From a virus (lineage: Duplodnaviria > Caudoviricetes): 64,000 nucleotides of DNA. The DNA is taken from the IMG/VR virus record IMGVR_UViG_3300032310_000320, positions 10,432 through 74,431 of that record. One strand, 5' to 3'. Made by a program: the position numbers and the translations under genes. The notes beneath the pieces were generated by a model. It saw only the letters and a list, made by a program, of their open reading frames with translations, was not told the origin of the DNA and searched no databases. How positions within the stretch are numbered: position 1 is the first letter of the stretch; every line of letters begins with the position of its first letter. This document shows, in pieces, positions 13 to 38,009 of the stretch.

Positions 13-41
13 CTAATAGCAGGCTTGAGTTAGGGCATCAA
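13..41 (-). promoter_or_regulatory. sigma70-like promoter directly after cassette terminator T1
   Basis: Minus strand TTGATG-N17-TATTAG; the -35 begins right after TAGCTG of the terminator tail. Confidence 0.45.
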
Positions 42-84
42 CAGCTAAAAAAAACCCACCCAAGCCCAAAGGCAAGGGTGGGTT
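41..84 (-). terminator. Cassette terminator T1 (family ACCCACCC-UU-GCC-loop-GGC-UU-GGGUGGGU, U8, AGCTG)
   Basis: Hairpin plus U-tract 3 nt after the stop of 88..336. Confidence 0.85.
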
Positions 85-87
85 AAT

Positions 88-336
88 TTACTCAATATCC
101 TTTTTCATACCGAACAATTGACATTCCAACTGGAACCACAATAATTCTTCCTCCGGCGACACACTACACCGTTGACTGCTTTCCGCAATCAGCAGCCAAT
201 CTCGCAGTTTTTCCCGCGTTGATCTAATTCCAATTTTGTGACCCTCCCACGGGGTCCAATACGAGTCAATGTTTTTTTGAATTTTAGCAATTAAATCTTT
301 GGACGCGTCAAAAGCATAAAGTACGTAACCAGTCAT
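88..336 (-). CDS. Hypothetical protein, cassette 1 cargo
   Basis: ORF 88..363; start reset to ATG 336 (MTGYVLY) after GGAGG. Confidence 0.7.
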   Translation of the reverse strand: MTGYVLYAFDASKDLIAKIQKNIDSYWTPWEGHKIGIRSTREKLRDWLLIAESSQRCSVSPEEELLWFQLECQLFGMKKDIE

Positions 337-353
337 CGTGAGAAACCCTCCTA

Positions 354-397
354 GCATATTCACTATCTGAACAACAGCGTTCAGACAGCTAATATGC
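354..397 (-). other. Cassette 1 5'-leader hairpin (GCUGUU loop)
   Basis: GCAUAUU-A-GCUGUCUGAAC / GUUCAGAUAGU-G-AAUAUGC. Confidence 0.8.
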
Positions 398-401
398 GGT
401 A

Positions 402-435
402 CATGTAATATGACGCATTTAAGCTTTGGATTTAG
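402..435 (-). promoter_or_regulatory. Cassette promoter-like box P1
   Basis: CTAAATccaaagcttaaatGCGTCATATTACATG; one of nine copies. Confidence 0.8.
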
Positions 436-442
436 ATGCTCT

Positions 443-488
443 GATAGCTAAAAAAAACCCACCCAAGCCCGAAGGCAAGGGTGGGTTT
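443..488 (-). terminator. Cassette terminator T2 (C-UUCG-G loop, tandem UU/UU mismatch, U8, AGCTATCAGAG)
   Basis: Hairpin plus U-tract 4 nt after the stop of 493..858. Confidence 0.9.
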
Positions 489-492
489 AAAC

Positions 493-858
493 TTAAACCG
501 ACACGCCGTCTGCCCACGTAGGGCAGCCGCATTCTCGGGCGATCTCAATCAATTGGCGAGACAGCTCAACGCTGTCTCGGCCAAACCTAAAATTTATCTT
601 ATTTGCATCTACCATGATCAACACATTTGCTGGAGTTGCGATAAGCAACTCCCAGACAGATCTTTTGGCAACGAAACCGGCGTAACCGGACGGGTTTGTC
701 GCCGCATCGCGTGCAATTGCCGTGGCAATTGCATCGTGCAATTCGTCCCACGACTCTGGAGTTTCGTTCAACGTTAGCGAGCCAAAGGCCTTTAACAGCC
801 TTTGGATTGACTCATAAACATTGCCGCGATGAAACAGTTCAACTCTAAGTTCACGCAT
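493..858 (-). CDS. Hypothetical protein, cassette 2 cargo
   Basis: ORF 493..882; start reset to ATG 858 (MRELRVE) after AGGAG. Confidence 0.75.
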   Translation of the reverse strand: MRELRVELFHRGNVYESIQRLLKAFGSLTLNETPESWDELHDAIATAIARDAATNPSGYAGFVAKRSVWELLIATPANVLIMVDANKINFRFGRDSVELSRQLIEIARECGCPTWADGVSV

Positions 859-879
859 AACAAAGACTCCTATTGAATC

Positions 880-917
880 CACACACCTCTAACCCGAAAT
901 GGCTTAGATAGCGTGTG
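880..917 (-). other. Cassette 2 5'-leader hairpin (CC-AUUUC-GG loop, bulged A)
   Basis: CACACGCU-A-UCUAAGCC AUUUC GGGUUAGA-GGUGUGUG. Confidence 0.8.
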
Positions 918-924
918 TCTTCCA

Positions 925-958
925 CATGTAATATGACGCGTTTCTGCTTCCAATTTAG
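925..958 (-). promoter_or_regulatory. Cassette promoter-like box P2
   Basis: CTAAATtggaagcagaaacGCGTCATATTACATG. Confidence 0.8.
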
Positions 959-960
959 GC

Positions 961-989
961 TTGACATTCATTCCCAACAAGACCACAAT
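961..989 (+). promoter_or_regulatory. sigma70-like promoter for 1044..1283
   Basis: TTGACA-N17-CACAAT, back-to-back with P2. Confidence 0.65.
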
Positions 990-1043
990 CCCTCTTCGCT
1001 AGGCAGGTGATTTGGTTTCTGTTTAGCTTGTTGAGGATTAGCT

Positions 1044-1283
1044 ATGTTGAAGTACGTTGCTCTCAGTTTCATATGCGTAACCGGTTTTGCCTTTGGTGGC
1101 GAAAAGGGCCAAGATGCTAAGGCTCCCGAGAAGGTCACACTTAAGTCGGCCAACAAGGTCATCGTGGAACAGAAGACCACAGAGTATGCTCCTGTCGCTA
1201 AGAAAAGGAAGTTGCTCTATCGTCCAGTCAGCGTCAAGAAGGTTGTGGGCGAAGTTGAAACCTGTCCTAACTGCAAGAAGTAA
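1044..1283 (+). CDS. Small secreted/periplasmic protein with C-terminal CxxC
   Basis: GAGGA RBS; signal-peptide-like N-terminus MLKYVALSFICVTGFAFG; ends CPNCKK; own promoter and T3 acts bidirectionally. Confidence 0.7.
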   Translation: MLKYVALSFICVTGFAFGGEKGQDAKAPEKVTLKSANKVIVEQKTTEYAPVAKKRKLLYRPVSVKKVVGEVETCPNCKK

Positions 1284-1291
1284 GTTTGGTT

Positions 1292-1341
1292 GATAGCTAA
1301 AAAAAAGCCCACCCAAGCCCGAAGGCAAGGGTGGGTTTTTT
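1292..1341. terminator. Cassette terminator T3, bidirectional
   Basis: Same core as T2; U8+AGCTATC on minus, T6 on plus; lies between convergent genes. Confidence 0.9.
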
Positions 1342-1343
1342 AT

Positions 1344-1622
1344 TTACTGGTTTGGCTGGTTACGCCAAACCCGGTCTAGTGCACCCATCGCCGCGTATGC
1401 GGCGCCTCCTATAACATAAATTACAAAAACTATACTTGCAGGAACTGGGATTGTTACCCAGTACCATAGTATCCATTCGGGTCCTTCGAAAATTTGCGGT
1501 ACCCATAAAAATTCGACTAGACTCGCCATCAATACAATTGCCGCGACTATAGCGGCAACTTTTAGCACAACACCAATTGCCGTAATATATACAGCTACAA
1601 ATTGAAACATGAAATTCTTCAT
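1344..1622 (-). CDS. Small membrane protein, cassette 3 cargo
   Basis: Two hydrophobic stretches; start reset to ATG 1622 (MKNFMFQ). Confidence 0.7.
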   Translation of the reverse strand: MKNFMFQFVAVYITAIGVVLKVAAIVAAIVLMASLVEFLWVPQIFEGPEWILWYWVTIPVPASIVFVIYVIGGAAYAAMGALDRVWRNQPNQ

Positions 1623-1638
1623 AGCCGAATCCCCCAAT

Positions 1639-1683
1639 AACAACTACGCCACCAAACCGAAGTGGTCTGATGGCGTAGTCGTC
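1639..1683 (-). other. Cassette 3 5'-leader hairpin (20-bp stem, CC-ACUUC-GG loop)
   Basis: GACGACUACGCCAUCAGACC ACUUC GGUUUGGUGGCGUAGUUGUU. Confidence 0.85.
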
Positions 1684-1685
1684 TA

Positions 1686-1719
1686 CATGTATTATGACAC
1701 GTTACTGGGTTGGATTTAG
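1686..1719 (-). promoter_or_regulatory. Cassette promoter-like box P3
   Basis: CTAAATccaacccagtaacGTGTCATAATACATG; begins 1 nt after the csrA stop. Confidence 0.8.
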
Positions 1720-1720
1720 G

Positions 1721-1906
1721 CTAGCTGACTTCCCCTATTTCGGGCAGTAACTCTTCCCTGATAATGTTCAAGGAAGGATCAGCCGCTATGCCTATTCTTG
1801 CCGTTCTGTCGGGTGCGTCTATGTTCACCAGCATCAGGACAATATCAGGTTTATTGTCCTGCCTGAGAATAATCCTCTGGCCAATCTTGCGGGTGAGTAC
1901 AAGCAT
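1721..1906 (-). CDS. csrA: CsrA/RsmA-family translational regulator
   Basis: MLVLTRK N-terminus, RIGIAAD and IIREEL match the CsrA fold including the RNA-binding Arg of REE. Confidence 0.85.
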   Translation of the reverse strand: MLVLTRKIGQRIILRQDNKPDIVLMLVNIDAPDRTARIGIAADPSLNIIREELLPEIGEVS

Positions 1907-1913
1907 CCATACC

Positions 1914-2366
1914 TCACGAAAGAGTTACCATCTGATTGAACTTAAATAGCTTCTTGAAAGACTGCTTGTGCTTTTCCATTTCTTTCAAGAAGGGTACAAG
2001 AGCTTTGGCAGTAACTGGGTCATCGTAGAAAGAAAAGAGTTGGACCTTGTTGGCGATGGCACCTACAGCGGCAATGACTATGTTGTGGGCACTGCAAATC
2101 TGATTGTTGATCCTTTTGCCAGCGTTCCCAATGATCGTGACTTCAATTCTTTTGCAAGGAACAGATGCCAAGTCAATCTTGCTGTTAATGCAATGCTTGG
2201 GATCTATTACCTCAAACATGTCAGCCAAAGATTTGAAATAATCACAACCAATGCGGGCAGGGCCATCTGTCCAATATTCAACTCTCCACGTGAAGTAAGG
2301 CTTGGAAACTTTAGGCTTGGATTTGGTTTTAGAAACTTTGGACTTTGGCGCTTCAACCTGTGACAT
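1914..2366 (-). CDS. Hypothetical protein, Lys-rich N-terminus, co-transcribed with csrA
   Basis: ORF with GGAGG RBS; stop 7 nt before the csrA start. Confidence 0.75.
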   Translation of the reverse strand: MSQVEAPKSKVSKTKSKPKVSKPYFTWRVEYWTDGPARIGCDYFKSLADMFEVIDPKHCINSKIDLASVPCKRIEVTIIGNAGKRINNQICSAHNIVIAAVGAIANKVQLFSFYDDPVTAKALVPFLKEMEKHKQSFKKLFKFNQMVTLS

Positions 2367-2425
2367 GCGACCTCCATGTGAGAAACAATAAACACTTATA
2401 ACGAGTTTGGGTTACTCGTGGAGGA

Positions 2426-2454
2426 AGTTTAAAAGTAATAAGATGAGGAGTCAA
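2426..2454 (-). promoter_or_regulatory. sigma70-like promoter for the 2366/csrA operon
   Basis: TTGACT-N17-TAAACT; the -35 starts right after TAGCTA of T4. Confidence 0.65.
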
Positions 2455-2504
2455 TAGCTAAAAAAAAGCCTACCTAAGCCCTAAGGCAAAGGTAGGCTTT
2501 TTTT
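2453..2504. terminator. Cassette terminator T4, bidirectional
   Basis: Variant of T1-T3 (GCCTACC/GGTAGGC stem); U8+AGCTATT on minus, T7 on plus. Confidence 0.85.
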
Positions 2505-2706
2505 AATGGCCCATGATCTCCATGAGCCATTTCCACTCATCGGCGCCTTCGTAGGGAAGACTTACTTCCCGCACTTGCCAGTTTCCATACTGCGCAGCGG
2601 CCTTCTGGGCCGCTGCGCGCGATGCATACTGCTGGGGATATGGTCCCCATTCAGCATTCCGATATGCGTTGGTGGCAAGATCAGAAACTAGGATGTACAC
2701 TTTCAT
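2503..2706 (-). CDS. Hypothetical protein, cassette 4 cargo
   Basis: Start reset to ATG 2706 (MKVYILV) after AGGAG. Confidence 0.7.
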   Translation of the reverse strand: MKVYILVSDLATNAYRNAEWGPYPQQYASRAAAQKAAAQYGNWQVREVSLPYEGADEWKWLMEIMGH

Positions 2707-2728
2707 CTCACGACTCCTAACCGAATCC

Positions 2729-2764
2729 ACACACCTCTAAACCGAAATGGCCTAGATAGCGTAT
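2729..2764 (-). other. Cassette 4 5'-leader hairpin (CC-AUUUC-GG loop, bulged A)
   Basis: AUACGCU-A-UCUAGGCC AUUUC GGUUUAGA-GGUGUGU. Confidence 0.8.
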
Positions 2765-2772
2765 AGCTTTCA

Positions 2773-2806
2773 CATGTATTATGACGCGTTTTTGGGTTGG
2801 ATTTAG
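2773..2806 (-). promoter_or_regulatory. Cassette promoter-like box P4
   Basis: CTAAATccaacccaaaaacGCGTCATAATACATG. Confidence 0.8.
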
Positions 2807-2814
2807 GCTCACCT

Positions 2815-2865
2815 AATAGCTAAAAAAAAGACCACGAACACAGGACTAGCCTGTGTCGTGGTCTT
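2815..2865 (-). terminator. Cassette terminator T5 (bulged stem, U8, AGCTATT)
   Basis: CCACGAACACAGGACTAGCCTGTGTCGTGG, identical core to T7. Confidence 0.85.
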
Positions 2866-2868
2866 AGA

Positions 2869-3510
2869 CTATTTTTTGCGGGGGCGACGGGGAATTTCTT
2901 CCCCAGTATGCGTAATATAAATCACGCCACTTTCTTTTGACTCAGGCGCGCGGGCCTTGTCGAGGGCCGCCACCAAATCTTGCGACAACGCCATATCGGC
3001 GTTGGGCGCGTTGATAACAAACACCCACCGGCGGGGTTTGACTTCGCGCACGGCGAAGTCTATTGACGGCATGATCTTGCCGTCAAGGTAGATCCAAGTT
3101 GGACCTACCACCAGTTCCCAAGCTCCAAGCATCGGAGCCTCGGGAACACCCTTTTTTGCGGCAATGGCCGCGCGGGTTTCGAGCGGCACCGACAGCTTGG
3201 GGCCTTCGATTATATCAAAGGCCCCTCCTTGCTCGTTCATGCATCTCCGGGTTGAGCCCGGAGATGGTTTCTCAAGTTCTGCGAGCGCTTGCTCGCAGAG
3301 TTTCACCAATGCCCTCTCAGACTTTAAGTCTGCAAGGGCATTGGTTACGTCAGCTCTTAAAGCTGACGTAAGTGAAACCTCAGCTTCATATCGCTTCTCC
3401 CAGTGAGCGGCGCGATATTGCAATTCGTTGATTTGCACCGCAGCATTAGCGGTGTAAATCAGAAAAGTTGCCGCAAGCGCGAGCGCCAAACCCAAGATGA
3501 AATCCTTCAT
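2869..3510 (-). CDS. Membrane-anchored coiled-coil protein, cassette 5 cargo
   Basis: N-terminal hydrophobic helix then heptad-like region; start ATG 3510 after GAGGAG. Confidence 0.75.
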   Translation of the reverse strand: MKDFILGLALALAATFLIYTANAAVQINELQYRAAHWEKRYEAEVSLTSALRADVTNALADLKSERALVKLCEQALAELEKPSPGSTRRCMNEQGGAFDIIEGPKLSVPLETRAAIAAKKGVPEAPMLGAWELVVGPTWIYLDGKIMPSIDFAVREVKPRRWVFVINAPNADMALSQDLVAALDKARAPESKESGVIYITHTGEEIPRRPRKK

Positions 3511-3535
3511 CGTGGTACTCCTCACACAGCCAAGT

Positions 3536-3565
3536 CACCTCTAACCAGAAATTGGTTTGATAGCG
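3536..3565 (-). other. Cassette 5 5'-leader hairpin (A-AUUUC-U loop, bulged A)
   Basis: CGCU-A-UCAAACCA AUUUC UGGUUAGA-GGUG; loop-closing pair is A-U instead of C-G. Confidence 0.75.
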
Positions 3566-3576
3566 TATGGCCGTCT

Positions 3577-3610
3577 CATGTTATATGACGCGTTTCTAGC
3601 TTGGATTTAG
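3577..3610 (-). promoter_or_regulatory. Cassette promoter-like box P5
   Basis: CTAAATccaagctagaaacGCGTCATATAACATG; its TAA is the stop of the 3607 ORF. Confidence 0.8.
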
Positions 3611-3816
3611 TTTGTGTTTGCGTTGCCACCCTTAGGATCTTCAGCCATGTCAGCTTCCATCCACAGGTTCCATTTCTTAACCACTCTTCTGCCTTTGTAG
3701 TAAAGCACAGGCGTGGACAACTTACCTTCGTAATCAACCCACATCAAAGAATAGTCAGACGTCAATTCAACATCCACACCATCCACACTCAACAACTGAT
3801 ATTTCACGCCAGACAT
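3607..3816 (-). CDS. Hypothetical protein
   Basis: Start reset to ATG 3816 (MSGVKYQ) after GGAGGT. Confidence 0.6.
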   Translation of the reverse strand: MSGVKYQLLSVDGVDVELTSDYSLMWVDYEGKLSTPVLYYKGRRVVKKWNLWMEADMAEDPKGGNANTN

Positions 3817-3892
3817 ATCACCTCCACAAAAAAGAAACAGGCGGGGAATTGTACCCCCACCTGTAAGAAAAACATACCACTTTTTCTTAGAC

Positions 3893-6214
3893 CTAGAACG
3901 CGCAGGCACCACCAACACATGCATAATTCTGCGCCGATTCCGTTTGATCGTCATCTTCGTACTGACACAACTTGGACCAATCCACCACAGGGAAATCCTT
4001 GGAGAACATAGCGTACTGTTCTGGCGTTAATTCCTCATTGGGTGCGTGCTTGTACACACCATTATCTTTAGGAAGGAAACTGAGGCCTGTGATTTCATCG
4101 AAGTGATCATAGACCCAAGAGCCGACTTGAAACCACTCATAGGGCTCCACATAAATAGTCGCGGATACAGAATGCTCGGCCCAGTTACGTTTCCAGCAGA
4201 GCCAGTTTTCCAGTTGTTCAATGGCCGTCATGGAGTTACGTGTGAGACAACCATCAGGAGCAGTCTTGGGGAAACCAAACACGTACAAGTCATTAGGCCT
4301 TTCGGGAGAATCATGGTACGGAACGCCTTGGTCAATTAGGAACTTGGCCACAGGTGAATGCTTTGATTCTCTTACCCACCTGATTTGCCTGTCTGCGTAA
4401 CGAGGACTAACACCAGAAGCACAATCAAAGAACACGCTGCTGTCGCCTCCCGGTTTGATGCACGTGTCAGCCGCCGAACGAGAAATACCAAAGCGCCGAG
4501 TAAGGGCTTCATTGGTTTCGTTAACGACTGCTTTGAGTTTGCGGAGAAGCTCAGGTCTGTTGGGATGTGATGGATGTAGAAGAGGACAATCAGCATGTCC
4601 CGTAATATCCACACCCAGAAGCGCTTCCTCCTCACAGTTCCTACGCCACTGGTCTCTGATGTAATTGAAACGAGTACACGTGGCCTGCATGGTACCGAAG
4701 TAAGTCGCAACAAGGACTTTCTTCATGAGAGTCGTTTCAGTGTCGTCAGGTCTGGCTACAGCAATAGAAAGGTTGCAGAACTCATAGGGTCTAAGTTGAA
4801 TTTCACCGCATGGGTTAAAGCCCCAATCATGTCCCTTCTGCCTACGCTCGGGTGCCTGCATATCCATGGCTTGGCGATTGCAAATACCACGTTCGCCTGA
4901 GTAACTACGAATGAGGGACAGCCACTCATCCATGAACACGTCAGTTGAAGGTTTGGAATGGTACACGGCTGAGTTGTTGGCCATGCTGCGATGCTTGTTG
5001 TCTATGTACCACTGACCCGACTTAGCAGAACGCATTTCATGGCTGCCCAAGTCAGACAATGAAATAAGAGCTGCGCGTCGTACACCACCTACCTGCACAA
5101 TGTTGCCAATCATGCAGCAGATGTCGTGAACGTCTATGTCACTGAGATGACGGGTTTGACGGGACAATACAATCCGTCTGATGAAAGTCATTAATTCATG
5201 GAATGGCTCTGGTCCTGATGCACGTCCGCCTTTGGTCTTGAGACGTGTGCCTTTGGGCCTGACAGCCGACGTGTCGAGAATAAAGTCACGCCCCTGAAAC
5301 AGAAATTCAAGACAGTGGAACAGAGCATCACACCATCCCTCTGTGCTGTCCTCAACCACAACCGAAATGGGAAGTTCACCCGTCTGCTTGGCGATACGAG
5401 GTAACGTAGAAATTTGATCGTACTCAACAGAAAACCCCATTCCTGTACCTTGCATAAGTACATATAGCAACTCGGCGAATGAGCGCAGGTCGGTAATTGG
5501 CGCGTAGGCACAATTATACACACCCACATGACATCTTTCGAGTGCAGGTCCAGCCATCTGCACCACACGCATAGCAGGTGATGCCTCTAGCTGATACATA
5601 GATTTGGAAAGCATATCCCATTCATCTTGGGTCAGTTTGTTCTTGACCTTAGGAAGATTCTGGAACCAAGGGATGACACGGTTGAATACAGTTTCCTTCC
5701 AAGTCTCGCGGCGTTTCTCGGTGTCATTCCAGCGAGAGAACTTGCCAATAAATTGGTAATACTGTAGATCCGTCTGAAAGTGAGTACGGTCCTCGGATAC
5801 CGCCGAAGCATACGCCGTTGGAACTGGGCGATTGAGTCTGGCTCTGCGCCTGTCTTCTCTGTAGTTCTGGTAGTGTTCTGCAAACTCAGAGAGGCTTGTG
5901 ATCCAGAGTTGGGCAATGATGGTTCTTTGAATCTCTTCAACATCGATAGGACCCGTTGCGTTTCGTGTGATTAGCCCCAAAACTACATACTCAAGAATAG
6001 GATCGACATCAGGCATAGCCACGTTCTGTTCAGATACCACGTTGTTGAAACACCTGAGAAGAGCAGCTTTGATCTTCTCAATGTCAAAAGCAACAATCGA
6101 GCCATCCCTCTTGCGAACTGTCCAACCTTTAGTTGATTCAGCAATGGGTTGTTCGAGCTTCTCAAGAAACTCAGGTTGAACAGAACGTACACGGTAAGGT
6201 GAATAAGTTTGCAT
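3893..6214 (-). CDS. nrdJ: Class II (adenosylcobalamin-dependent) ribonucleotide reductase with N-terminal ATP-cone
   Basis: VRKRDGS ATP-cone; YNCAY, GTGMGFS, GGVRRAALISL, NPCGE, FCNL, IKPGG and C-terminal ACVGGAC; likely start MQTYSPY at 6214. Confidence 0.92.
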   Translation of the reverse strand: MQTYSPYRVRSVQPEFLEKLEQPIAESTKGWTVRKRDGSIVAFDIEKIKAALLRCFNNVVSEQNVAMPDVDPILEYVVLGLITRNATGPIDVEEIQRTIIAQLWITSLSEFAEHYQNYREDRRRARLNRPVPTAYASAVSEDRTHFQTDLQYYQFIGKFSRWNDTEKRRETWKETVFNRVIPWFQNLPKVKNKLTQDEWDMLSKSMYQLEASPAMRVVQMAGPALERCHVGVYNCAYAPITDLRSFAELLYVLMQGTGMGFSVEYDQISTLPRIAKQTGELPISVVVEDSTEGWCDALFHCLEFLFQGRDFILDTSAVRPKGTRLKTKGGRASGPEPFHELMTFIRRIVLSRQTRHLSDIDVHDICCMIGNIVQVGGVRRAALISLSDLGSHEMRSAKSGQWYIDNKHRSMANNSAVYHSKPSTDVFMDEWLSLIRSYSGERGICNRQAMDMQAPERRQKGHDWGFNPCGEIQLRPYEFCNLSIAVARPDDTETTLMKKVLVATYFGTMQATCTRFNYIRDQWRRNCEEEALLGVDITGHADCPLLHPSHPNRPELLRKLKAVVNETNEALTRRFGISRSAADTCIKPGGDSSVFFDCASGVSPRYADRQIRWVRESKHSPVAKFLIDQGVPYHDSPERPNDLYVFGFPKTAPDGCLTRNSMTAIEQLENWLCWKRNWAEHSVSATIYVEPYEWFQVGSWVYDHFDEITGLSFLPKDNGVYKHAPNEELTPEQYAMFSKDFPVVDWSKLCQYEDDDQTESAQNYACVGGACAF

Positions 6215-6257
6215 ACCAAGCCTCGTAGACACAGAACAAAATTGGAGTGGAGAAGCC

Positions 6258-6285
6258 ATTCTAAGGGAGACCCCCCGAGCGTCAA
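6258..6285 (-). promoter_or_regulatory. sigma70-like promoter for nrdJ
   Basis: TTGACG-N16-TAGAAT just after T6. Confidence 0.55.
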
Positions 6286-6296
6286 GCAAAGTCTCT

Positions 6297-6342
6297 GATA
6301 GCTAAAAAAAGGAACACTGGAGGGTTTAAACCCCAGTGTTCC
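6297..6342 (-). terminator. Cassette terminator T6 (bulged stem, U7, AGCTATCAGAG)
   Basis: GGAACACTG / CAGTGTTCC outer stem with an asymmetric bulge. Confidence 0.85.
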
Positions 6343-6352
6343 TCAGAAAGTT

Positions 6353-6616
6353 CTAAGCCGCATTCCATGCAGCCAGAACTTCCTTTCCGCTGTAAATTAC
6401 CCCGTCAGGGGTAACAGCGGCGACGTCCCCGCAAGGGGACATGTGAAACTTAAAGCCTAAGGCTTTAAGTTTCACAAGGATTTGCACAGACGCGCCCTCG
6501 GTAGGGCGCCCCTCGCGCTGTAGCAAAGCAGCGAAATACATCGCTGCTTTGCTGAAGTTCTTAGCCTGAAAGTGCTTTTGCACTTTCAGGCCCAAGAAGA
6601 TTTGATTGCAAAGCAT
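6353..6616 (-). CDS. Hypothetical protein, cassette 6 cargo
   Basis: GGAGG RBS; enclosed by P6 and T6. Confidence 0.75.
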   Translation of the reverse strand: MLCNQIFLGLKVQKHFQAKNFSKAAMYFAALLQREGRPTEGASVQILVKLKALGFKFHMSPCGDVAAVTPDGVIYSGKEVLAAWNAA

Positions 6617-6629
6617 TGCAATCCTCCAT

Positions 6630-6671
6630 GCGTAACATTACCCAAACAACAGCGTTTGGATAGCGTTACGC
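6630..6671 (-). other. Cassette 6 5'-leader hairpin (GCUGUU loop)
   Basis: GCGUAACG-C-UAUCCAAAC GCUGUU GUUUGGGUA-A-UGUUACGC; same loop as cassette 1 with a different stem. Confidence 0.8.
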
Positions 6672-6675
6672 GCCT

Positions 6676-6709
6676 CATGTTATATGACGCAGTTTTGCTG
6701 TGAATTTAG
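6676..6709 (-). promoter_or_regulatory. Cassette promoter-like box P6
   Basis: CTAAATtcacagcaaaactGCGTCATATAACATG. Confidence 0.8.
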
Positions 6710-6717
6710 GTTTAGCC

Positions 6718-6768
6718 AATAGCTAAAAAAAAGCCCACGAACACAGGACTAGCCTGTGTCGTGGGTTT
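6718..6768 (-). terminator. Cassette terminator T7
   Basis: Core identical to T5; U8+AGCTATT. Confidence 0.85.
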
Positions 6769-6772
6769 TGGA

Positions 6773-7153
6773 TTAGGTTATCTTAATGCCCTCCTTTTGG
6801 AGCATGTCAAGCCTTTGGTTTTCTTCCTTCATTTCTTCGGCGCTCAGTATCGTGGGCCGAACCCAGACATCGCTTACGTAGCCCTTTATGGGCCCTAAAC
6901 TTCGAGCGTCCGTAGACGCCCTCACCCACAATTCCTTTGTCAGTGCGTCAATTAGGATTACGCGACCATATGAGTCGCGTAAGTTTGTGTTGAACATCGA
7001 TCTGTTATTAATGTCTTGACACTGCGCTCGTGAGAATTTAATTCTCAATATCTCTCTGTATCGGGATGCCAACACCGTTCCGGTGCCGTGGCGGACGGGG
7101 ACAAAATTCACATTTTGAATTTTATTCAGAAAGTCTGCGATTGTACGGATCAT
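6773..7153 (-). CDS. Hypothetical protein, cassette 7 cargo
   Basis: Start reset to ATG 7153 (MIRTIAD) after AAGGAG. Confidence 0.75.
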   Translation of the reverse strand: MIRTIADFLNKIQNVNFVPVRHGTGTVLASRYREILRIKFSRAQCQDINNRSMFNTNLRDSYGRVILIDALTKELWVRASTDARSLGPIKGYVSDVWVRPTILSAEEMKEENQRLDMLQKEGIKIT

Positions 7154-7174
7154 GACGATACTCCTTCTAAAGCC

Positions 7175-7210
7175 ACACACCTCTAAACCGAAATGGCTTA
7201 GATAGCATAT
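7175..7210 (-). other. Cassette 7 5'-leader hairpin (CC-AUUUC-GG loop, bulged A)
   Basis: AUAUGCU-A-UCUAAGCC AUUUC GGUUUAGA-GGUGUGU. Confidence 0.8.
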
Positions 7211-7218
7211 GGCTTTCA

Positions 7219-7252
7219 CATGTATTATGACGCGTTTTTGCTGTGGATTTAG
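7219..7252 (-). promoter_or_regulatory. Cassette promoter-like box P7
   Basis: CTAAATccacagcaaaaacGCGTCATAATACATG; its TAA is the stop of the 7249 ORF. Confidence 0.8.
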
Positions 7253-7698
7253 GGCTTCATGATTTGAGCGAGAACAGCCCAAAGAGACATGACGAGTGTG
7301 GCTACCATGCTGGCCACCGCAGTTACGATCTGACCTTTAGTGACTGTCTTGGCAGTCTGAAAATTGTCTACGGCTTTCTTGACATCTTCCACGCACGATT
7401 TCATGTCATCAATGTCTGCTTCGATGTGTTGCAAACTAGCTTCTACTTTGGTGAGCCTGTCCATGATGGATGGCTGCCCGTTACCGTCGCGAATGATCTT
7501 GAACAATTTGCTTTGGTTGTCGTTGTAGTTCTTAATGTTGGAATCAATAAGCTTGATCTGAGTAACGACTTCTCCCAATCTTTCTTGGTTGGTAGCGACA
7601 GATGATTTAAGGTCAGTCAGATCTTTTGTGATATGCAATACGTTGTTGGACGTGGTTGTAATCAGCGAGATCATTTCCTGTGTTGCTGACGGTGCCAT
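7249..7698 (-). CDS. Coiled-coil protein with C-terminal membrane anchor
   Basis: Heptad pattern plus hydrophobic tail IVTAVASMVATLVMSLWAVL; start MAPS after GGAGG. Confidence 0.7.
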   Translation of the reverse strand: MAPSATQEMISLITTTSNNVLHITKDLTDLKSSVATNQERLGEVVTQIKLIDSNIKNYNDNQSKLFKIIRDGNGQPSIMDRLTKVEASLQHIEADIDDMKSCVEDVKKAVDNFQTAKTVTKGQIVTAVASMVATLVMSLWAVLAQIMKP

Positions 7699-7977
7699 CA
7701 GTCGTGCCTCCAAGAAAGTCCGTTGAATAGATCTCTTCGAGTTCCCCACTGCCCGAAGTACCGATGCTTGTACAAGACAAGCCGAAGAGACGCTAAAAGG
7801 CGTGCGTTCCCTTCACCACCTCGATCCCGGTCTTCTCACCATGGATCAGCCCGTGAATACGCATAAAGCGAATTCCACATCACCAACCGACGCCTGCGGT
7901 AAACCTATCCAACAGACTTAATGATTGTACCTTAGGCGCGGAGTTACACCGAATGTACGTGACGTGGTTGAAATAAA

Positions 7978-8883
7978 TTATGCGTCGTTAACAGATTCCC
8001 GCACAACATCAGGCATTTCTAATTTCGGCATTGGCGTTACGACGTGATTGATCCACTGATTGAAATCCGGCACTGAGAATTTAAATCCAGATCCATCCAC
8101 ACCCTCAACATCAATCTCAGGGTGATCCCATTTAAATTGTATAAGTGCTTTTACAATCTCTTCCTGATTGAGTTTTAACCACGTTGCCGTTTTGGTACCC
8201 AGTGCGTTGGATGCCAGTGTCCTGTAATACTCAAAAGGTTTTATGTGTCCAACGAAATGAATCCCTGCAAGAAACAAGTTTTCACGGCTGCGCAGGATAT
8301 TGACCTTGATGTGATTGAAGTTATTGGCGCAGTAATTCAACATGTCGGCAGAAGGATAATTGCGCGTGGATGCATCTAACGGAGGTAATAGGTCTCGAGG
8401 ATAAATTGCCGAAGGTGTGCAACAACGGTGAGACACAGGTAGAGAAGCATCATTGTCCGAAAAATCAACGACAAATAATTCATTGGTGTCCCTGTAATAG
8501 TACATGGCATTGGCTAAAACTGTAACACCCGTCTGACCCACAAGAAGCTGCCTGTCCATTTGAGCTGCAAGGCGTCTAGGATCACTCAGGTTGTCGTCAT
8601 CCCATATGGCGATGTAATCCCCTCTCGCCACGGTTAAGGCTTGTACGAGGCCATCTAAGACCTGCCTGATGTATGGCCTAGAGATGACTTTGATTTTGTG
8701 TCCACCACAACGAGAAGTGTTGTTGATTAGGAATGATTGTATTTGAACGGCGTGCTTGGAATCAGACGTGACAATGATCAACTCTTTGGCGGCATATGTT
8801 TGTTCACAGTAATTAAGAATGGCTCTCTGTAAGTGAGGGAACCGGGAAGGGATTGTTGTGCAGATGCAGGACACAAGACTCAT
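7978..8883 (-). CDS. GT2-family (GT-A) glycosyltransferase
   Basis: LVSCICTT N-terminus; YIAIWDDDNLSDPRRLAAQ. Confidence 0.8.
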   Translation of the reverse strand: MSLVSCICTTIPSRFPHLQRAILNYCEQTYAAKELIIVTSDSKHAVQIQSFLINNTSRCGGHKIKVISRPYIRQVLDGLVQALTVARGDYIAIWDDDNLSDPRRLAAQMDRQLLVGQTGVTVLANAMYYYRDTNELFVVDFSDNDASLPVSHRCCTPSAIYPRDLLPPLDASTRNYPSADMLNYCANNFNHIKVNILRSRENLFLAGIHFVGHIKPFEYYRTLASNALGTKTATWLKLNQEEIVKALIQFKWDHPEIDVEGVDGSGFKFSVPDFNQWINHVVTPMPKLEMPDVVRESVNDA

Positions 8884-10312: not shown

Positions 10313-10319
10313 ACATACC

Positions 10320-26954: not shown

Positions 26955-26962
26955 GGCTAACC

Positions 26963-27918: not shown

Positions 27919-28048
27919 AAGGCCCCCTACTCTTTAATGTTCATAGTCACAAACACACCCAGAAAAAAGCATAGCGTACACGACACCGCATCAATAGAGT
28001 GTCTTATCAAATCGTGCAAATTTTGGTCAAAGTTGAAATGCCCAAACA

Positions 28049-29290: not shown

Positions 29291-29293
29291 GTC

Positions 29294-29662: not shown

Positions 29663-29669
29663 GTGCAAC

Positions 29670-29684
29670 TCCTTATAAGTACTT
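29670..29684 (-). promoter_or_regulatory. Candidate late-promoter motif AAGTACTTATAAGGA
   Basis: 14/15 identical to the copies at 26101 and 34776. Confidence 0.55.
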
Positions 29685-31540: not shown

Positions 31541-31557
31541 GCTTACCTCGAATTAAC

Positions 31558-32217: not shown

Positions 32218-32321
32218 AGCAGCTTACTCACAATAAATAAAATTAATTTACTTAAAACGCCGGACATGCTTCGTATTGTACGGCATGCCCGGCGTTTTAA
32301 AGAAAAGCTAGAACTTAATGT

Positions 32322-32837: not shown

Positions 32838-32847
32838 ATCTATCTCC

Positions 32848-34767: not shown

Positions 34768-34775
34768 GCTGCCAT

Positions 34776-34790
34776 TCCTTATAAGTGCTT
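34776..34790 (-). promoter_or_regulatory. Candidate late-promoter motif AAGCACTTATAAGGA
   Basis: 8 nt upstream of the portal-candidate ATG. Confidence 0.55.
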
Positions 34791-34796
34791 ATTGAA

Positions 34797-34973
34797 TTAC
34801 TTGCGGCGGCAGGCATCCGCAGCTTCGTCCATCAACCGGGAAGCTATGTGCTGATCCACGGCGGACTCGGCTTGCTTCTCTGTAGAACAAGCACTGCCAC
34901 ATTTACCCGAACAACCCTTTTGGATGGGACTGTCGGGTGTCTGCTCAGTAATAATACCGCGCTTTTCAATCAT
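34797..34973 (-). CDS. Small 58-aa protein absent from the ORF track
   Basis: GGAG RBS; MIEKRGIITEQ...GCSGKCGSACSTEKQAES...DACRRK*; fills the intergenic gap. Confidence 0.6.
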   Translation of the reverse strand: MIEKRGIITEQTPDSPIQKGCSGKCGSACSTEKQAESAVDQHIASRLMDEAADACRRK

Positions 34974-34985
34974 GACAGGACTCCA

Positions 34986-36068: not shown

Positions 36069-36100
36069 GCGTTAAATACTCCACAAGGTTAATAGCTGCA

Positions 36101-36129
36101 AGTGTATGAAGGAAGGGGTTTTGGTACAA
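36101..36129 (-). promoter_or_regulatory. sigma70-like promoter
   Basis: TTGTAC-N17-TACACT just after T8. Confidence 0.55.
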
Positions 36130-36141
36130 GTTCGGTTCTCT

Positions 36142-36191
36142 GATAGCTAAAAAAAAGACTAGGACACCCGGGAGTTACCCGGATGTCCTAG
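36142..36191 (-). terminator. Cassette terminator T8 (internal mismatch, U8, AGCTATCAGAG)
   Basis: CTAGGACA / TGTCCTAG outer stem, CCGGG/CCCGG inner stem. Confidence 0.85.
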
Positions 36192-36199
36192 CCTAAACA

Positions 36200-36448
36200 T
36201 TAGTTGTTCAGCATCAAGTGCTGAACTGCTTTAAGAGTTTCAATTAACAAATGGCGCGCGCCATTTGTTAATCGGCCCTCCTCGGTCCATCTAATTTGCC
36301 CGCAGGGCAAATTAGACTTGGCCGCTGAAGCAGCGGCCTTGAACAATTTCTGTTCTGAGGGCGTCATTTCAACGCCCTCTATCAGTCCTGTTACTATGTA
36401 TGCCGCCTCAATGGCGGCGTGATCCGAAACTAGAACTTCGCTGTGCAT
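36200..36448 (-). CDS. Hypothetical protein, cassette 8 cargo
   Basis: Start reset to ATG 36448 (MHSEVLV) after GGAGG. Confidence 0.7.
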   Translation of the reverse strand: MHSEVLVSDHAAIEAAYIVTGLIEGVEMTPSEQKLFKAAASAAKSNLPCGQIRWTEEGRLTNGARHLLIETLKAVQHLMLNN

Positions 36449-36468
36449 TGCGAAACCTCCACTCAAGA

Positions 36469-36505
36469 GCCAGTAGTCCTTACTGGCGCACAGGTAAATA
36501 CCTGT
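36469..36505 (-). other. Cassette 8 leader: two short hairpins, the second with an AGGAC loop
   Basis: ACAGGUA-UU-UACCUGU; GCCAGUA-AGGAC-UACUGGC. Confidence 0.7.
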
Positions 36506-36506
36506 A

Positions 36507-36540
36507 CATGTTATATGACGCATTTTTGCTGCGAATTTAG
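36507..36540 (-). promoter_or_regulatory. Cassette promoter-like box P8
   Basis: CTAAATtcgcagcaaaaatGCGTCATATAACATG; its TAA is the stop of the 36537 ORF. Confidence 0.8.
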
Positions 36541-36749
36541 CTGCGTGGTTTGTAGGGTGTCCAGTCTTCTGCGACTGTGCACCAACGCCGAGCATCCTTC
36601 TTAGCCATAATTACATTCGTGACTTTGCAATAATTCACGGCGCCACACTTACAGGCATCATCGAACATGCTGTAGAGATGCAATGATTCAGGCGTAGGAT
36701 CATCAGGTGCGATTACAACTTTCTTGCACACAGAACATTGAACCACCAT
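36537..36749 (-). CDS. Small Cys-rich (Zn-ribbon-like) protein
   Basis: CSVC and CKC..C; CAGGAG RBS. Confidence 0.65.
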   Translation of the reverse strand: MVVQCSVCKKVVIAPDDPTPESLHLYSMFDDACKCGAVNYCKVTNVIMAKKDARRWCTVAEDWTPYKPRS

Positions 36750-36773
36750 GACGATCTCCTGTGATTACACGCA

Positions 36774-36801
36774 ATGGTAGTTTATTAAAACACCTGTGCA
36801 A
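36774..36801 (-). promoter_or_regulatory. sigma70-like promoter
   Basis: TTGCAC-N16-TACCAT; the -35 starts right after TAACTA of T9. Confidence 0.4.
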
Positions 36802-36847
36802 TAGTTAAAAAAAAGATCCCGTCCAAGCCCGAAGGCAAGGACGGGAC
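36800..36847 (-). terminator. Cassette terminator T9 (T2 family with compensated stem)
   Basis: CCCGTCC/GGACGGG replaces CCCACCC/GGGTGGG; same UU-GCC-UUCG-GGC-UU core; U8+AACTATT. Confidence 0.88.
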
Positions 36848-36855
36848 CTAATCGC

Positions 36856-37914
36856 TTAGGACGCAAGGATGTTGCGTTCAAAAGCAAGGTCGATCACTAA
36901 TCCTCCGGGATACCGGAGGAATGGAGTATCCCACCCCTCCGTAATTACGGGAGGCGTGAGAACAAATGTGTCCGCCTCCTCCAAGTAATTATCCTGCACG
37001 AGGCTTGTCACCTCATAGCAGTGCCCGTTGGAACTAGGAAGTTCCAACAGACCGCGCCCCGCAAGGCGGGTGGGGAACAACATGTCCCCACCCGCAAGCT
37101 GCACGCCTTGAGCGCGCAACCAATCACAAAGGACATCGACGGTATCACCGCCGATGTGGTTAATAATTTCCTGCCACCCTGCGGTGGCACGATTGTTAGT
37201 AACGTCCCAATTGGACAATGGCGGCCGTTGACCGGGCAACAGTCCGAGCGATGCCGCAACGGCGACCTCGCTAATTAAAACCCGGGGGAAATGATTCCCC
37301 TCCCAGACAGCGGCGTTCAAGAACGCCTCTATCAAATCCGCCGGAACCCGGCACATTGGCACGGGTTCCCCCTGCCCTTTTGGTTGATACGGGATAACTT
37401 TACCCTCGAAAGGGTTGATTAAGATTTGCCCCGGGGCAAACTCAATCCCTGCCTCTTTGAGGTCCGACACAAACATGGGACGCAGATCGTCCCATGTTGC
37501 GCGGACCGTTGCCGCAGTGGACATTGCAACGTCCACGGCCACCGCCGCCACGAACTGGCGTGGTGCCAGTTCGTGGTCAAGATTGACGTTTCGCCATCCC
37601 ACCGCATCGGTGGTGGCGTTCATGCCCCCAACGTAGGGGCCGAACGGCAAACAGCGAATAATCGCTGCCGTGGGCCGTGTGCCGGCGTACTGCCGGCCAT
37701 CCAAGAAGGCTGGCGGTGCGTCTTGCACCACCAGCCATTCCCCCGAGGTGACAAAGCACCTCGAGTTGACCATTTCGATGGAATCGGCCATAAGGCCGAT
37801 CCCAACATTGCCTCGGTATTTACCGAGGACAAGGTCATGGTGCCATCCGAAGATGGCCTGCGCGCCCTCGATGGCGCCATCAAGTTTAGAAACCACGGTC
37901 GCATCCATAGCCAT
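36856..37914 (-). CDS. Hypothetical protein, cassette 9 cargo (GC-rich)
   Basis: Start reset to ATG 37914 (MAMDAT) after GGAG. Confidence 0.75.
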   Translation of the reverse strand: MAMDATVVSKLDGAIEGAQAIFGWHHDLVLGKYRGNVGIGLMADSIEMVNSRCFVTSGEWLVVQDAPPAFLDGRQYAGTRPTAAIIRCLPFGPYVGGMNATTDAVGWRNVNLDHELAPRQFVAAVAVDVAMSTAATVRATWDDLRPMFVSDLKEAGIEFAPGQILINPFEGKVIPYQPKGQGEPVPMCRVPADLIEAFLNAAVWEGNHFPRVLISEVAVAASLGLLPGQRPPLSNWDVTNNRATAGWQEIINHIGGDTVDVLCDWLRAQGVQLAGGDMLFPTRLAGRGLLELPSSNGHCYEVTSLVQDNYLEEADTFVLTPPVITEGWDTPFLRYPGGLVIDLAFERNILAS

Positions 37915-37935
37915 CTTAAAGACTCCAAATGCATA

Positions 37936-37972
37936 CGACCGCTGCTCATCCGAAGTGGATAAACAACGGTCG
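37936..37972 (-). other. Cassette 9 5'-leader hairpin (16-bp stem, CC-ACUUC-GG loop)
   Basis: CGACCGUUGUUUAUCC ACUUC GGAUGAGCAGCGGUCG. Confidence 0.85.
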
Positions 37973-37974
37973 AG

Positions 37975-38009
37975 CATGTAATATGACGCGTTTCGGTCTA
38001 TCTATTTAG
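37975..38009 (-). promoter_or_regulatory. Cassette promoter-like box P9 (spacer 1 nt longer)
   Basis: CTAAATagatagaccgaaacGCGTCATATTACATG; its TAA is the stop of the 38006 ORF. Confidence 0.78.

What the first reader, a model, noticed from the sequence alone, without database searches (positions are those of the whole stretch)
41..38009. Nine stereotyped single-gene expression cassettes with one-to-one promoter/leader/terminator pairing
I find nine copies of a bipartite promoter-like box and nine U-tract terminators with a conserved AGCTAT-like tail. They pair one-to-one, each pair enclosing one mutually unrelated ORF of unknown function (88, 493, 1344, 2503, 2869, 6353, 6773, 36200, 36856). 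The order is fixed: box, 5' hairpin, SD, ORF, terminator within about 10 nt of the stop. I saw neither element on any of the other ~70 genes. Seven cassettes sit at 0-7.3 kb and two at 36-38 kb, interleaved with ordinary genes. Inference: a modular gene-capture/expression system, analogous to T4-type PeSL elements or lambdoid morons but with a different grammar, probably expressing host-takeover or anti-defence cargo as one regulon.
Basis: partly seen in the sequence, partly recalled or inferred. Interest (0 to 1): 0.92.

Follow-up and report, generated by a model that had tools for sequence, protein, structure and literature searches.

The report
Swappable one-gene cassettes in a giant phage
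An uncultured giant phage, probably of Planctomycetes, wraps nine small unknown genes each in the same promoter, leader hairpin and terminator, and related phages carry different genes in the same wrappers, much like the known PeSL cassettes of T4-like phages.

Summary
The 74-kb record holds exactly nine 35-nt boxes (CCTAAATCCA-N-AAACGCGTCATAWWACATG, 33-55 bits; nothing else above 12 bits). Each is followed by a stable leader hairpin, an SD, one unrelated ORFan and a hairpin-T8-AGCTAT terminator.

Comparison supports cassette exchange. In a 186-kb relative and dozens of metagenomic relatives the flanks stay 86-100% identical while the ORF between them is replaced. One slot holds seven unrelated cargo families in eleven genomes. 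Some cargo families also sit in different slots. No integrase or resolvase is detectable, but a UvsX-like recombinase is. This favours homologous recombination between repeated flanks, as in T4-type PeSLs and morons.

Three features differ from PeSLs. The box is not the host housekeeping promoter type. The phage lineage encodes a multisubunit RNAP and a sigma-like protein whose Salmonella phage Arash homologues are in the virion. The same box occurs sporadically in Planctomycetota chromosomes.

Who reads the promoter, its timing, the role of the AGCTAT tail and the cargo functions remain untested. The scan already noted this cassette family on the relative genome, and PeSL-like cassettes in other jumbo phages. 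Verdict: real, a new variant of a known kind.

The parts
41..436 (-). Cassette 1: box 402-436, leader hairpin 337-401, ORF 88-336 (82 aa), terminator 41-87 (tail AGCTGT)
   Evidence: The cargo is absent from relative G001, whose equivalent promoter drives a different 82-aa ORF.
444..959 (-). Cassette 2: box 925-959, leader 859-924, ORF 493-858 (121 aa), terminator 444-490. This terminator abuts box 1 (8 nt between AGCTAT and CTAAAT).
   Evidence: This is slot 1, which holds 7 cargo families in 11 genomes with flanks 96-98% identical.
1293..1720 (-). Cassette 3: box 1686-1720, perfect 20-bp leader hairpin, ORF 1344-1622 (92 aa, hydrophobic), bidirectional terminator 1293-1340
   Evidence: The cargo is conserved in G001 (88% nt) but replaced by another family in 3 relatives.
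2454..2807 (-). Cassette 4: box 2773-2807, leader, ORF 2503-2706 (67 aa), terminator 2454-2500. A TTGACT-N17-TAAACT sigma70-like site follows.
   Evidence: The whole cassette is absent from G001.
2816..3611 (-). Cassette 5: box 3577-3611, leader, ORF 2869-3510 (213 aa, N-terminal hydrophobic helix), terminator 2816-2865. This terminator abuts box 4.
   Evidence: This is slot 2, which holds 3 cargo families and 1 or 2 cassettes in relatives.
6298..6710 (-). Cassette 6: box 6676-6710, leader, ORF 6353-6616 (87 aa), terminator 6298-6346. TTGACG-N16-TAGAAT and the RNR gene follow.
   Evidence: The cargo is conserved at 95% in G001.
6719..7253 (-). Cassette 7: box 7219-7253, leader, ORF 6773-7153 (126 aa), terminator 6719-6768. 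This terminator abuts box 6.
   Evidence: This is slot 4, which holds 4 cargo families in 7 genomes.
36143..36541 (-). Cassette 8: box 36507-36541, two-hairpin leader, ORF 36200-36448 (82 aa), terminator 36143-36196
   Evidence: Diverged homologous cargo occurs in relatives.
36801..38009 (-). Cassette 9: box 37975-38009 (one-base shifted CTAAAT), leader hairpin, ORF 36856-37914 (352 aa, GC 0.58), terminator 36801-36852 (tail AACTAT)
   Evidence: Eleven homologues of 55-94% identity exist, none with a Pfam domain.

Best explanation
The nine units are autonomous, transcriptionally insulated one-gene expression cassettes of a ~190-kb jumbo phage whose host is probably a planctomycete.

Anatomy, as shown by sequence. 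A 35-nt promoter lies at a fixed distance from a GCTATC-type motif (+13 to +18 after ACATG). That motif is embedded in a stable 5' hairpin. Then come a strong SD, one ORFan, and a long bulged hairpin + U8 terminator with an invariant AGCTAT tail.

Function, inferred. The promoter starts a monocistronic mRNA, and the hairpins at its two ends stabilise it. The terminator stops read-through into neighbouring genes, some of which appear to have their own TTGAC-type promoters.

Evolution, shown by comparison. The repeated promoter/leader (~90 nt) and terminator (~50 nt) act as portable homology arms. Cargo ORFs are therefore replaced, inserted or deleted between close relatives and moved between slots. 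The most likely route is the phage's own homologous recombination (UvsX-like recombinase), that is, the PeSL/moron principle.

Who reads the box is inferred at about even odds. It is not the host housekeeping type. It is most likely read by a holoenzyme carrying the lineage's own sigma-like protein, possibly together with the phage multisubunit RNAP delivered in the virion. That would make these early genes.
For: - Motif specificity.
- Fixed anatomy in 60+ cassettes from relatives, with stop-to-T-run of 33-43 nt, T8-9 and an AGCTAT tail.
- Leader hairpins: dG -8 to -36 kcal/mol and z down to -6.7. The 7-nt outer arm is paired at 242 of 287 positions in 41 unique leaders, with at least 8 different complementary arm pairs.
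- Cargo exchange: G000 versus G001 are collinear at 70-97%, but cargo is swapped or absent in 5 of 7 clustered cassettes. There are 24 cargo families in 12 slots, and families 3, 4, 7 and 11 each occur in two slots.
- Same slot with different cargo: identity is 0.95-1.0 in the flank, 0.86-1.0 in the box, 0.69-0.98 in the first 45 nt of the leader, 0.23-0.29 in the ORF and 0.63-0.91 in the terminator.
- Terminators: in whole relatives G001 and G002, clean hairpin + T>=8 terminators are almost only the tailed ones. Distant G002 keeps the box and one T10-AGCTATCAGAGA terminator.
- Recombination machinery: a UvsX-like recombinase is in the window. No tyrosine or serine recombinase is found.
- Promoter class: planctomycete rRNA promoters are TTGACN-N17-TAnnAT, unlike the box.
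- Phage transcription genes: the lineage encodes a fused beta/beta'-N RNAP. It also encodes a 247-aa sigma-like protein with a Sigma70_r3 hit. That protein is 51% identical between G001 and G002 and homologous to Arash gp10. Arash RNAP and sigma are abundant in virions (PMC10585845).
Against: - No transcript data could be obtained, so start sites, ends, timing and strength are all inferred.
- The box also occurs in Planctomycetota chromosomes that lack the phage RNAP.
- About half of the chromosomal copies have TG at -15/-14, so they could work as extended -10 sigma70 promoters.
- The sigma-like gene and the RNAP genes lie outside the 74-kb record of this window and are known only from relatives.
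- Some 'same cargo, other slot' cases sit at contig ends and could be assembly chimeras across the repeat (L074).
- The AGCTAT tail and the +13 GCTATC motif have no demonstrated role.
- One gene outside the window starts 17 nt after a tailed terminator. Termination may therefore be leaky or regulated rather than purely insulating.
Confidence: 0.7

Rival explanations
1. The anatomy and shuffling are the same, but the box is read by host RNA polymerase alone, through an alternative host sigma or as an extended -10 promoter. The cassettes are then classic morons/PeSLs with a host-type promoter, and the phage sigma/RNAP serve other genes.
For: - The exact box occurs in 23 stretches of bacterial genomes, nearly all Planctomycetota, including complete chromosomes. 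There it lies upstream of operons such as DUF1257-DUF2997-AAA and an ExoX-like exonuclease.
- CATAAT lies 17 nt after CTAAAT, and TG sits at -15/-14 in about half of the chromosomal copies and in box 1686.
- CTAAA-N15-...ATAA resembles the sigma28/sigmaD promoter layout. This resemblance is from my own knowledge, not a test.
Against: - The core is typically one per genome and is found in few genomes, so it is not a host regulon pattern.
- Flagellin upstream regions do not show the box.
- Host rRNA promoters are of another type.
- The chromosomal operon has homologues in the phages, with the AAA protein 33-41% identical. Those copies may therefore be phage-derived modules rather than independent host promoters.
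Confidence: 0.35
2. An integron-like site-specific capture system. GCTATC at +13 of the leader and AGCTATC after the terminator are the two copies of a core site left by precise insertion of circular cassettes.
For: - The same hexamer class flanks hairpin, ORF and terminator in nearly all cassettes.
- In one indel (G001 versus L075/L058, slot 2) both boundaries fall immediately 5' of CGCYATC.
Against: - No tyrosine or serine recombinase is found in G000, G001 or G002.
- In slot 1 seven different cargos share the whole hairpin and diverge only at the SD, so breakpoints are not fixed at the hexamer.
- AGCTAT and GCTATC occur at expected frequency all over the genome.
- The TAGC motif at +9 to +16 also follows the box in chromosomal copies that have no cassette.
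Confidence: 0.07
3. Regulated gates. The leader motif plus hairpin is a nut-like antitermination site. The terminators hold back downstream genes (RNR, a glycosyltransferase and others) until a phage factor lets polymerase read through.
For: - Several ordinary genes lie directly behind tailed terminators. One starts 17 nt after the tail, with no room for a promoter.
- CGCTATC followed by a hairpin recalls lambda boxA (CGCTCTTA) plus boxB. This is from my own knowledge.
- Chromosomal copies of the box are followed by an ~85-nt leader that ends in a terminator before the operon.
Against: - The planctomycete rRNA leader boxA-like sequence (GATCTTTGACAATTT) does not resemble GCTATC.
- At least two downstream genes have plausible TTGAC-type promoters of their own.
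- Three terminators are followed at once by the next box.
- No N- or Q-like factor was identified.
Confidence: 0.12
4. The repeats are remnants of local duplication or of a small non-autonomous mobile element and have no regulatory role.
For: The repeats are clustered (seven within 7.3 kb) and fall into sequence subfamilies.
Against: - Spacing to the SD, start and stop is fixed.
- All copies have the orientation of the genes.
- Compensatory stems are maintained.
- The box and tail are conserved in a distant relative whose sigma-like protein is only 51% identical.
- The box is conserved across bacterial families.
Confidence: 0.02

Closest known systems
PeSLs (promoter-early stem-loops) of T4-type phages (Arbiol et al. 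2010, PMC2839356; Comeau et al. 2014, PMC4122927)
   Same: - Repeated regulatory modules (terminator stem-loop plus promoter) flank ORFans in variable regions.
- Insertions, deletions and replacements between close relatives have breakpoints inside the modules.
- Transcriptional insulation lets genes be swapped without disturbing neighbours.
- Three junctions here are true composite terminator-promoter units.
   Different: - The phage lineage is unrelated: a jumbo phage with its own multisubunit RNAP, a sigma-like protein and tubulin.
- The promoter is not the host sigma70 consensus.
- The mRNA carries an additional conserved 5' hairpin with a fixed GCTATC motif.
- The terminator has an invariant AGCTAT tail.
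- The box also occurs in host-phylum chromosomes.
- Mini-circles were not examined.
Morons of lambdoid phages (gene flanked by its own promoter and factor-independent terminator, inserted between two phage genes; Hendrix/Juhala concept, from my own knowledge)
   Same: - Each unit is a single gene with its own promoter and intrinsic terminator.
- Units are present or absent between relatives.
- Some cargo has atypical GC (0.42-0.58 against 0.48).
   Different: - Morons carry individual, unrelated sigma70 promoters and terminators and are typically expressed from prophages.
- Here all units share one stereotyped promoter, leader and terminator set, in what looks like a lytic jumbo phage with no integrase.
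Early promoters of phiKZ-like jumbo phages read by virion RNAP (core TATATTAC; table in PMC7058600)
   Same: - A conserved phage-specific motif precedes small early-type ORFans in a tubulin-encoding jumbo phage that has its own multisubunit RNAP.
- The core CATATTAC in 3 of 9 boxes differs from TATATTAC by one base.
   Different: - There is no AT-rich upstream context.
- A CTAAAT element lies 17 nt upstream.
- The RNAP here resembles cellular beta/beta' closely (E 1e-54) and is fused rather than phiKZ-like.
- A sigma-like protein is present.
- There are only 9 sites per genome.
Promoter/hairpin/RBS and terminator-promoter cassettes noted earlier in this scan in other jumbo phages (121Q-like, Lu11-like)
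   Same: Repeated promoter plus leader-hairpin or terminator-promoter units precede small early genes, and all were compared to PeSLs.
   Different: - Those cassettes use host sigma70-type promoters.
- None was reported with a conserved terminator tail or with copies of the promoter in host chromosomes.

Membership tests
PeSL (T4-type promoter-early stem-loop cassette) | Composite unit: terminator stem-loop immediately followed by a promoter | tested here: met
   Three junctions qualify: T444 to box 402-436, T2816 to box 2773-2807, and T6719 to box 6676-6710, with 8-9 nt between AGCTAT and CTAAAT. The other six promoters and terminators stand apart.
PeSL (T4-type promoter-early stem-loop cassette) | The promoter is a strong host sigma70-like early promoter | tested here: not met
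   The -35 position reads CTAAAT. Host-phylum rRNA promoters read TTGACN-N17-TAnnAT. The sigma70 consensus scan does not pick up the boxes, apart from one weak overlapping hit at 6704-6677 (9 of 12).
PeSL (T4-type promoter-early stem-loop cassette) | Flank ORFans in variable regions, with indels and replacements between close relatives bounded by the elements | tested here: met
PeSL (T4-type promoter-early stem-loop cassette) | Recombination between elements yields mini-circles | not testable with these tools
   This needs inverse PCR or long reads. One contig joining a slot-1 promoter to slot-4 cargo (L074) is compatible but may be an assembly artefact.
Moron | Single gene with its own promoter and factor-independent terminator, inserted between phage genes and variably present | tested here: met
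Moron | Expressed autonomously from a prophage | tested here: not met
   No integrase or resolvase is found in G000, G001 or G002. Expression itself could not be tested.
Integron gene cassette | Tyrosine-recombinase integrase and a fixed crossover point in a core site | tested here: not met
   No PF00589 or PF00239 match. Breakpoints vary in position.
phiKZ-type virion-RNAP early promoter | AT-rich promoter with a TATATTAC core | tested here: inconclusive
   The core is CATAWWAC, with CATATTAC in 3 of 9 boxes, against TATATTAC (PMC7058600). The upstream part is not AT-rich.
phiKZ-type virion-RNAP early promoter | Read by a virion-packaged phage RNAP, independently of host RNAP | not testable with these tools
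   The support is indirect. RNAP and sigma-like homologues of Arash are abundant in Arash virions.
Lambda-type nut antitermination site | boxA matching the host rRNA-leader boxA, followed by a boxB hairpin | tested here: not met
   The planctomycete rRNA leaders carry GATCTTTGACAATTT, not GCTATC.

The most novel reading that the evidence does not exclude
The box is specific to the phage's injected sigma-RNAP holoenzyme. The sporadic single copies of the same box in Planctomycetota chromosomes precede an ~85-nt terminated leader and a DUF1257-DUF2997-AAA operon that has homologues in the phages. On this reading they are infection-triggered modules (defence islands or satellites) that stay silent until the phage's own polymerase arrives.
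Probability: 0.12. Interest if true: 0.85.

Novelty: new variant of a known kind. Interest (0 to 1): 0.55.

Why it matters
The cassettes show that the PeSL/moron principle also operates in an unrelated, uncultured jumbo-phage lineage, with different parts. That principle is repeated regulatory flanks that both express accessory genes and let them be exchanged.

The data give a ready-made catalogue of fast-turnover accessory genes to screen: at least 24 cargo families in defined slots.

The shared box provides a sequence-based host prediction (Planctomycetota) for a phage group with almost no cultured members. It also links a compact, high-information promoter to a candidate phage sigma/RNAP pair, which in vitro transcription can test directly.

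The invariant terminator tail and the fixed +13 motif are unexplained signals tied to this transcription system.

Tried and rejected
- Cargo function. Pfam and PHROG gave nothing significant for all nine. The protein atlas had no usable hit for the 352-aa cargo. An AlphaFold model from 12 homologues had pLDDT 44, so I made no fold search.
- Sigma28 idea: flagellin upstream regions of four planctomycete genomes do not show the box. This was inconclusive and I dropped it.
- boxA/nut idea: the rRNA leader boxA-like sequence differs.
- Rfam: no known RNA family at the chromosomal copies and no tRNA genes next to them.
- Restriction or recognition-site idea for AGCTAT: the hexamers occur at expected frequency genome-wide.
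- Single consensus structure by RNAalifold on MAFFT alignments of the leaders: it returned no structure, because the families differ in register by bulges. I replaced it with per-sequence folds and arm-pair counts.
- Looking for the sigma and RNAP genes on the larger metagenome contigs that carry the box: those records are not held.
- Nucleotide search of phage GenBank records with window 1-8000: only two short RNR matches.

Full report
**What the window is.** It is bases 10432-74431 of a 74,431-b IMG/VR viral contig estimated to be 36% complete. All long ORFs lie on the - strand. The window encodes:
- a class II RNR with an ATP-cone, a PolA fused to a UDG-like domain, helicases and a tubulin/PhuZ-like protein;
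- a primase and a UvsX-like recombinase.

A 186-kb relative (G001) is collinear with it at 70-97% nucleotide identity, and its ends overlap by about 614 nt. A more distant 219-kb relative is G002.

**Observation.** The promoter-like box is real and highly specific.
- There are nine hits against 0.11 expected.
- A PWM built from eight of the nine copies, then rebuilt from all nine, finds exactly nine sites of 33-55 bits and nothing else above 12 bits in 74 kb.
- On the transcribed strand the consensus is CCTAAATCCA-N5-AAACGCGTCATAWWACATG.
- Nine terminators follow the same grammar: a long bulged hairpin of dG -20 to -31 kcal/mol, then T7-8, then A(G/A)CT(A/G)T.
- Boxes and terminators alternate one-to-one. 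Each pair encloses one SD-preceded ORF of 67-352 aa, and the hairpin starts within about 10 nt of the stop.
- Each leader holds a stable hairpin, with dG -8 to -36 kcal/mol and z as low as -6.7.
- Seven of the nine leaders carry (A/C)GC(T/C)(A/G)TC exactly 10-11 nt after ACATG, inside the 5' arm of the stem.

Corrections to the finding are minor. ORF starts are the SD-preceded ATGs. A tenth tailed terminator lies just outside the window and closes a 48-aa lipoprotein mini-gene that has only a sigma70-like promoter. T1293 and T2454 are bidirectional.

**The hairpin is selected as a structure.** In 41 unique leaders from the window and its relatives, the 7 nt upstream of the motif are paired at 242 of 287 positions. 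At least eight different 5' arms each have a complementary 3' arm. Examples are GCAUAUU/AAUAUGC, CGCGUAA/UUACGC, AGACAUU/AAUGUCU and ACGACUA/UAGUCGU.

**Relatives and cargo turnover.** An exact-pattern scan of metagenome contigs returned 69 stretches. The high-scoring group consists of close relatives of this phage from freshwater and marine samples.
- *Architecture.* Among cassettes with complete ORFs, nearly all repeat the same layout, including T8-9 and the AGCTAT tail.
- *Cargo families.* The 62 complete cassettes scoring at least 40 bits fall into 24 cargo families and 12 slots, where a slot is defined by its upstream flank.
- *Slot occupancy.* The slot of box 925 holds seven unrelated cargo families in eleven genomes. 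The slot of box 7219 holds four in seven. The slot of box 3577 holds three in nine, as one or two cassettes.
- *Identity profile.* For the same slot with different cargo, pairwise identity is 0.95-1.0 in the flank, 0.86-1.0 in the box and 0.69-0.98 in the first 45 nt of the leader. It falls to 0.23-0.29 in the ORF and rises again to 0.63-0.91 in the terminator.
- *Slot changes.* Four cargo families occur in two different slots. One case (L074) lies at a contig end and may be an assembly chimera.
- *G000 versus G001.* Five of the seven clustered cassettes differ in cargo or presence, and two are conserved.
- *Base composition.* Cargo GC ranges from 0.42 to 0.58 against a genome value of 0.48.

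**Mechanism of exchange.** Breakpoints are not fixed. In slot 1 they lie after the hairpin, near the SD. In a slot-2 indel they lie at the CGCYATC motif. No tyrosine or serine recombinase is detectable in G000, G001 or G002, whereas a UvsX-like recombinase is present. AGCTAT and GCTATC are ordinary hexamers elsewhere in the genome. This favours homologous recombination between the repeated flanks, the mechanism proposed and partly demonstrated for T4-type PeSLs (PMC2839356; PMC4122927). It argues against an integron-like system.

**Terminators.** In the whole of G001 and G002, clean hairpin + T>=8 terminators are almost exclusively the tailed ones. G002 has four boxes and a single T10-AGCTATCAGAGA terminator about 740 nt downstream of one of them. 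Box and tailed terminator thus travel together across a distance at which the sigma-like protein is only 51% identical. The role of the tail is unknown. A context effect on termination is my guess.

**Who reads the box?**
- *Not the housekeeping type.* Planctomycete rRNA promoters read TTGACN-N17-TAnnAT. Similar sites follow some cassette terminators, namely TTGACG-N16-TAGAAT before the RNR gene and TTGACT-N17-TAAACT after T2454.
- *The lineage has its own transcription proteins.* It encodes a 1498-aa fused beta/beta'-N RNAP and a 247-aa sigma-like protein. That protein has a Sigma70_r3 hit at E 3e-5 in G001 and a weak region-4 hit in its G002 orthologue. Its best host matches are 284-310-aa sigma genes at E 1e-3 to 1e-5.
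- *Virion link.* Both proteins are homologous to proteins of Salmonella phage Arash. The RNAP is 29.6% identical over 97% of its length, and gp10 sigma matches at E 1e-8. In Arash these proteins are among the most abundant virion proteins by mass spectrometry (PMC10585845).
- *Resemblance to phiKZ.* The core CATATTAC resembles the phiKZ early-promoter core TATATTAC, but the context differs.
- *Evidence pointing the other way.* The exact box occurs in 23 stretches of bacterial genomes, nearly all Planctomycetota, including complete chromosomes. There is usually one copy per genome. Each is followed by the same TAGC-type motif at +9 to +16. Often an ~85-nt leader ending in a terminator comes next, and then a DUF1257-DUF2997-AAA operon or an exonuclease gene. 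The AAA protein has 33-41% identical homologues in G001 and G002. These loci may therefore be phage-derived modules rather than an independent host regulon.

I put phage sigma-dependent recognition at about one half and host-only recognition at about one third.

**Cargo function.** This remains unknown. There are no significant family hits. The 352-aa cargo has eleven homologues without domains. Its model was unusable, with pLDDT 44. 'Host takeover or anti-defence' remains a guess based on size, position and turnover.

**Comparison and novelty.** The system works like PeSLs and morons and meets their structural and evolutionary criteria. It fails the PeSL criterion of a host sigma70-type promoter and the moron criterion of prophage expression. 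The scan has already noted this same cassette family on the relative genome, and PeSL-like cassettes in several other jumbo phages. New here are four things:
- the promoter class;
- its link to a phage sigma/RNAP pair and to planctomycete chromosomes;
- the invariant terminator tail and the fixed +13 motif;
- the breadth of comparative evidence for cargo exchange.

I rate it a new variant of a known kind, of moderate interest.

Noticed in passing
window 961-1283 (+ strand): A 79-aa ORF with a signal-peptide-like N-terminus (1044-1283) is the only clear + strand gene in this region. It has a TTGACA-N17-CACAAT site (961-989) back-to-back with box 925-959 and ends at the bidirectional terminator T1293. 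It is 95% conserved in G001.
   Followed up: partly
window 118-145 (+ strand): The best sigma70-like match in the first 8 kb (TTGACA-N16-AATAAT, 11 of 12) lies antisense inside cargo ORF 88-336. It resembles the 961-989 site in sequence and may be an antisense promoter.
   Followed up: no
L001 10150-10472 (G000, just before the window start): A 48-aa lipoprotein mini-gene (lipobox LTGC) lies between T41 and a tenth tailed terminator. A 288-aa ORF of unknown family begins 17 nt after that terminator, leaving no room for a promoter, which implies read-through.
   Followed up: partly
L017:5918-10414 and L014:12088-12831 (relative G001): G001 has a fused beta plus beta'-N-terminal RNA polymerase ORF of 1498 aa and a divergent 247-aa sigma70-family protein. 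The sigma-like protein is 51% identical in G002 and homologous to the virion-associated gp10 of Salmonella phage Arash.
   Followed up: partly
L101, L112, L113, L103, L118 (Planctomycetota genomes): The phage box occurs at one to a few loci per genome. It is followed by an ~85-nt leader ending in an intrinsic terminator and then a DUF1257-DUF2997-AAA operon. In Planctomicrobium it occurs at four loci, three as tandem pairs, each before a 97-aa ORF. No Rfam family matches these leaders.
   Followed up: partly
G001 181042-183177 versus window about 1283-1293: G001 has about 2.1 kb of extra DNA between the + strand ORF and the T1293-equivalent terminator that G000 lacks.
   Followed up: no
L074 (metagenome contig, 4119 b): The slot-1 promoter and 5' hairpin arm are joined to slot-4 cargo, which is the product expected from recombination between two cassette promoters. 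Because the junction is at a contig end inside a repeat, it could be an assembly artefact.
   Followed up: partly
window 28049-29290 and 55076-58432: A tubulin/PhuZ-like gene, and a family A DNA polymerase with an N-terminal UDG-superfamily domain.
   Followed up: no
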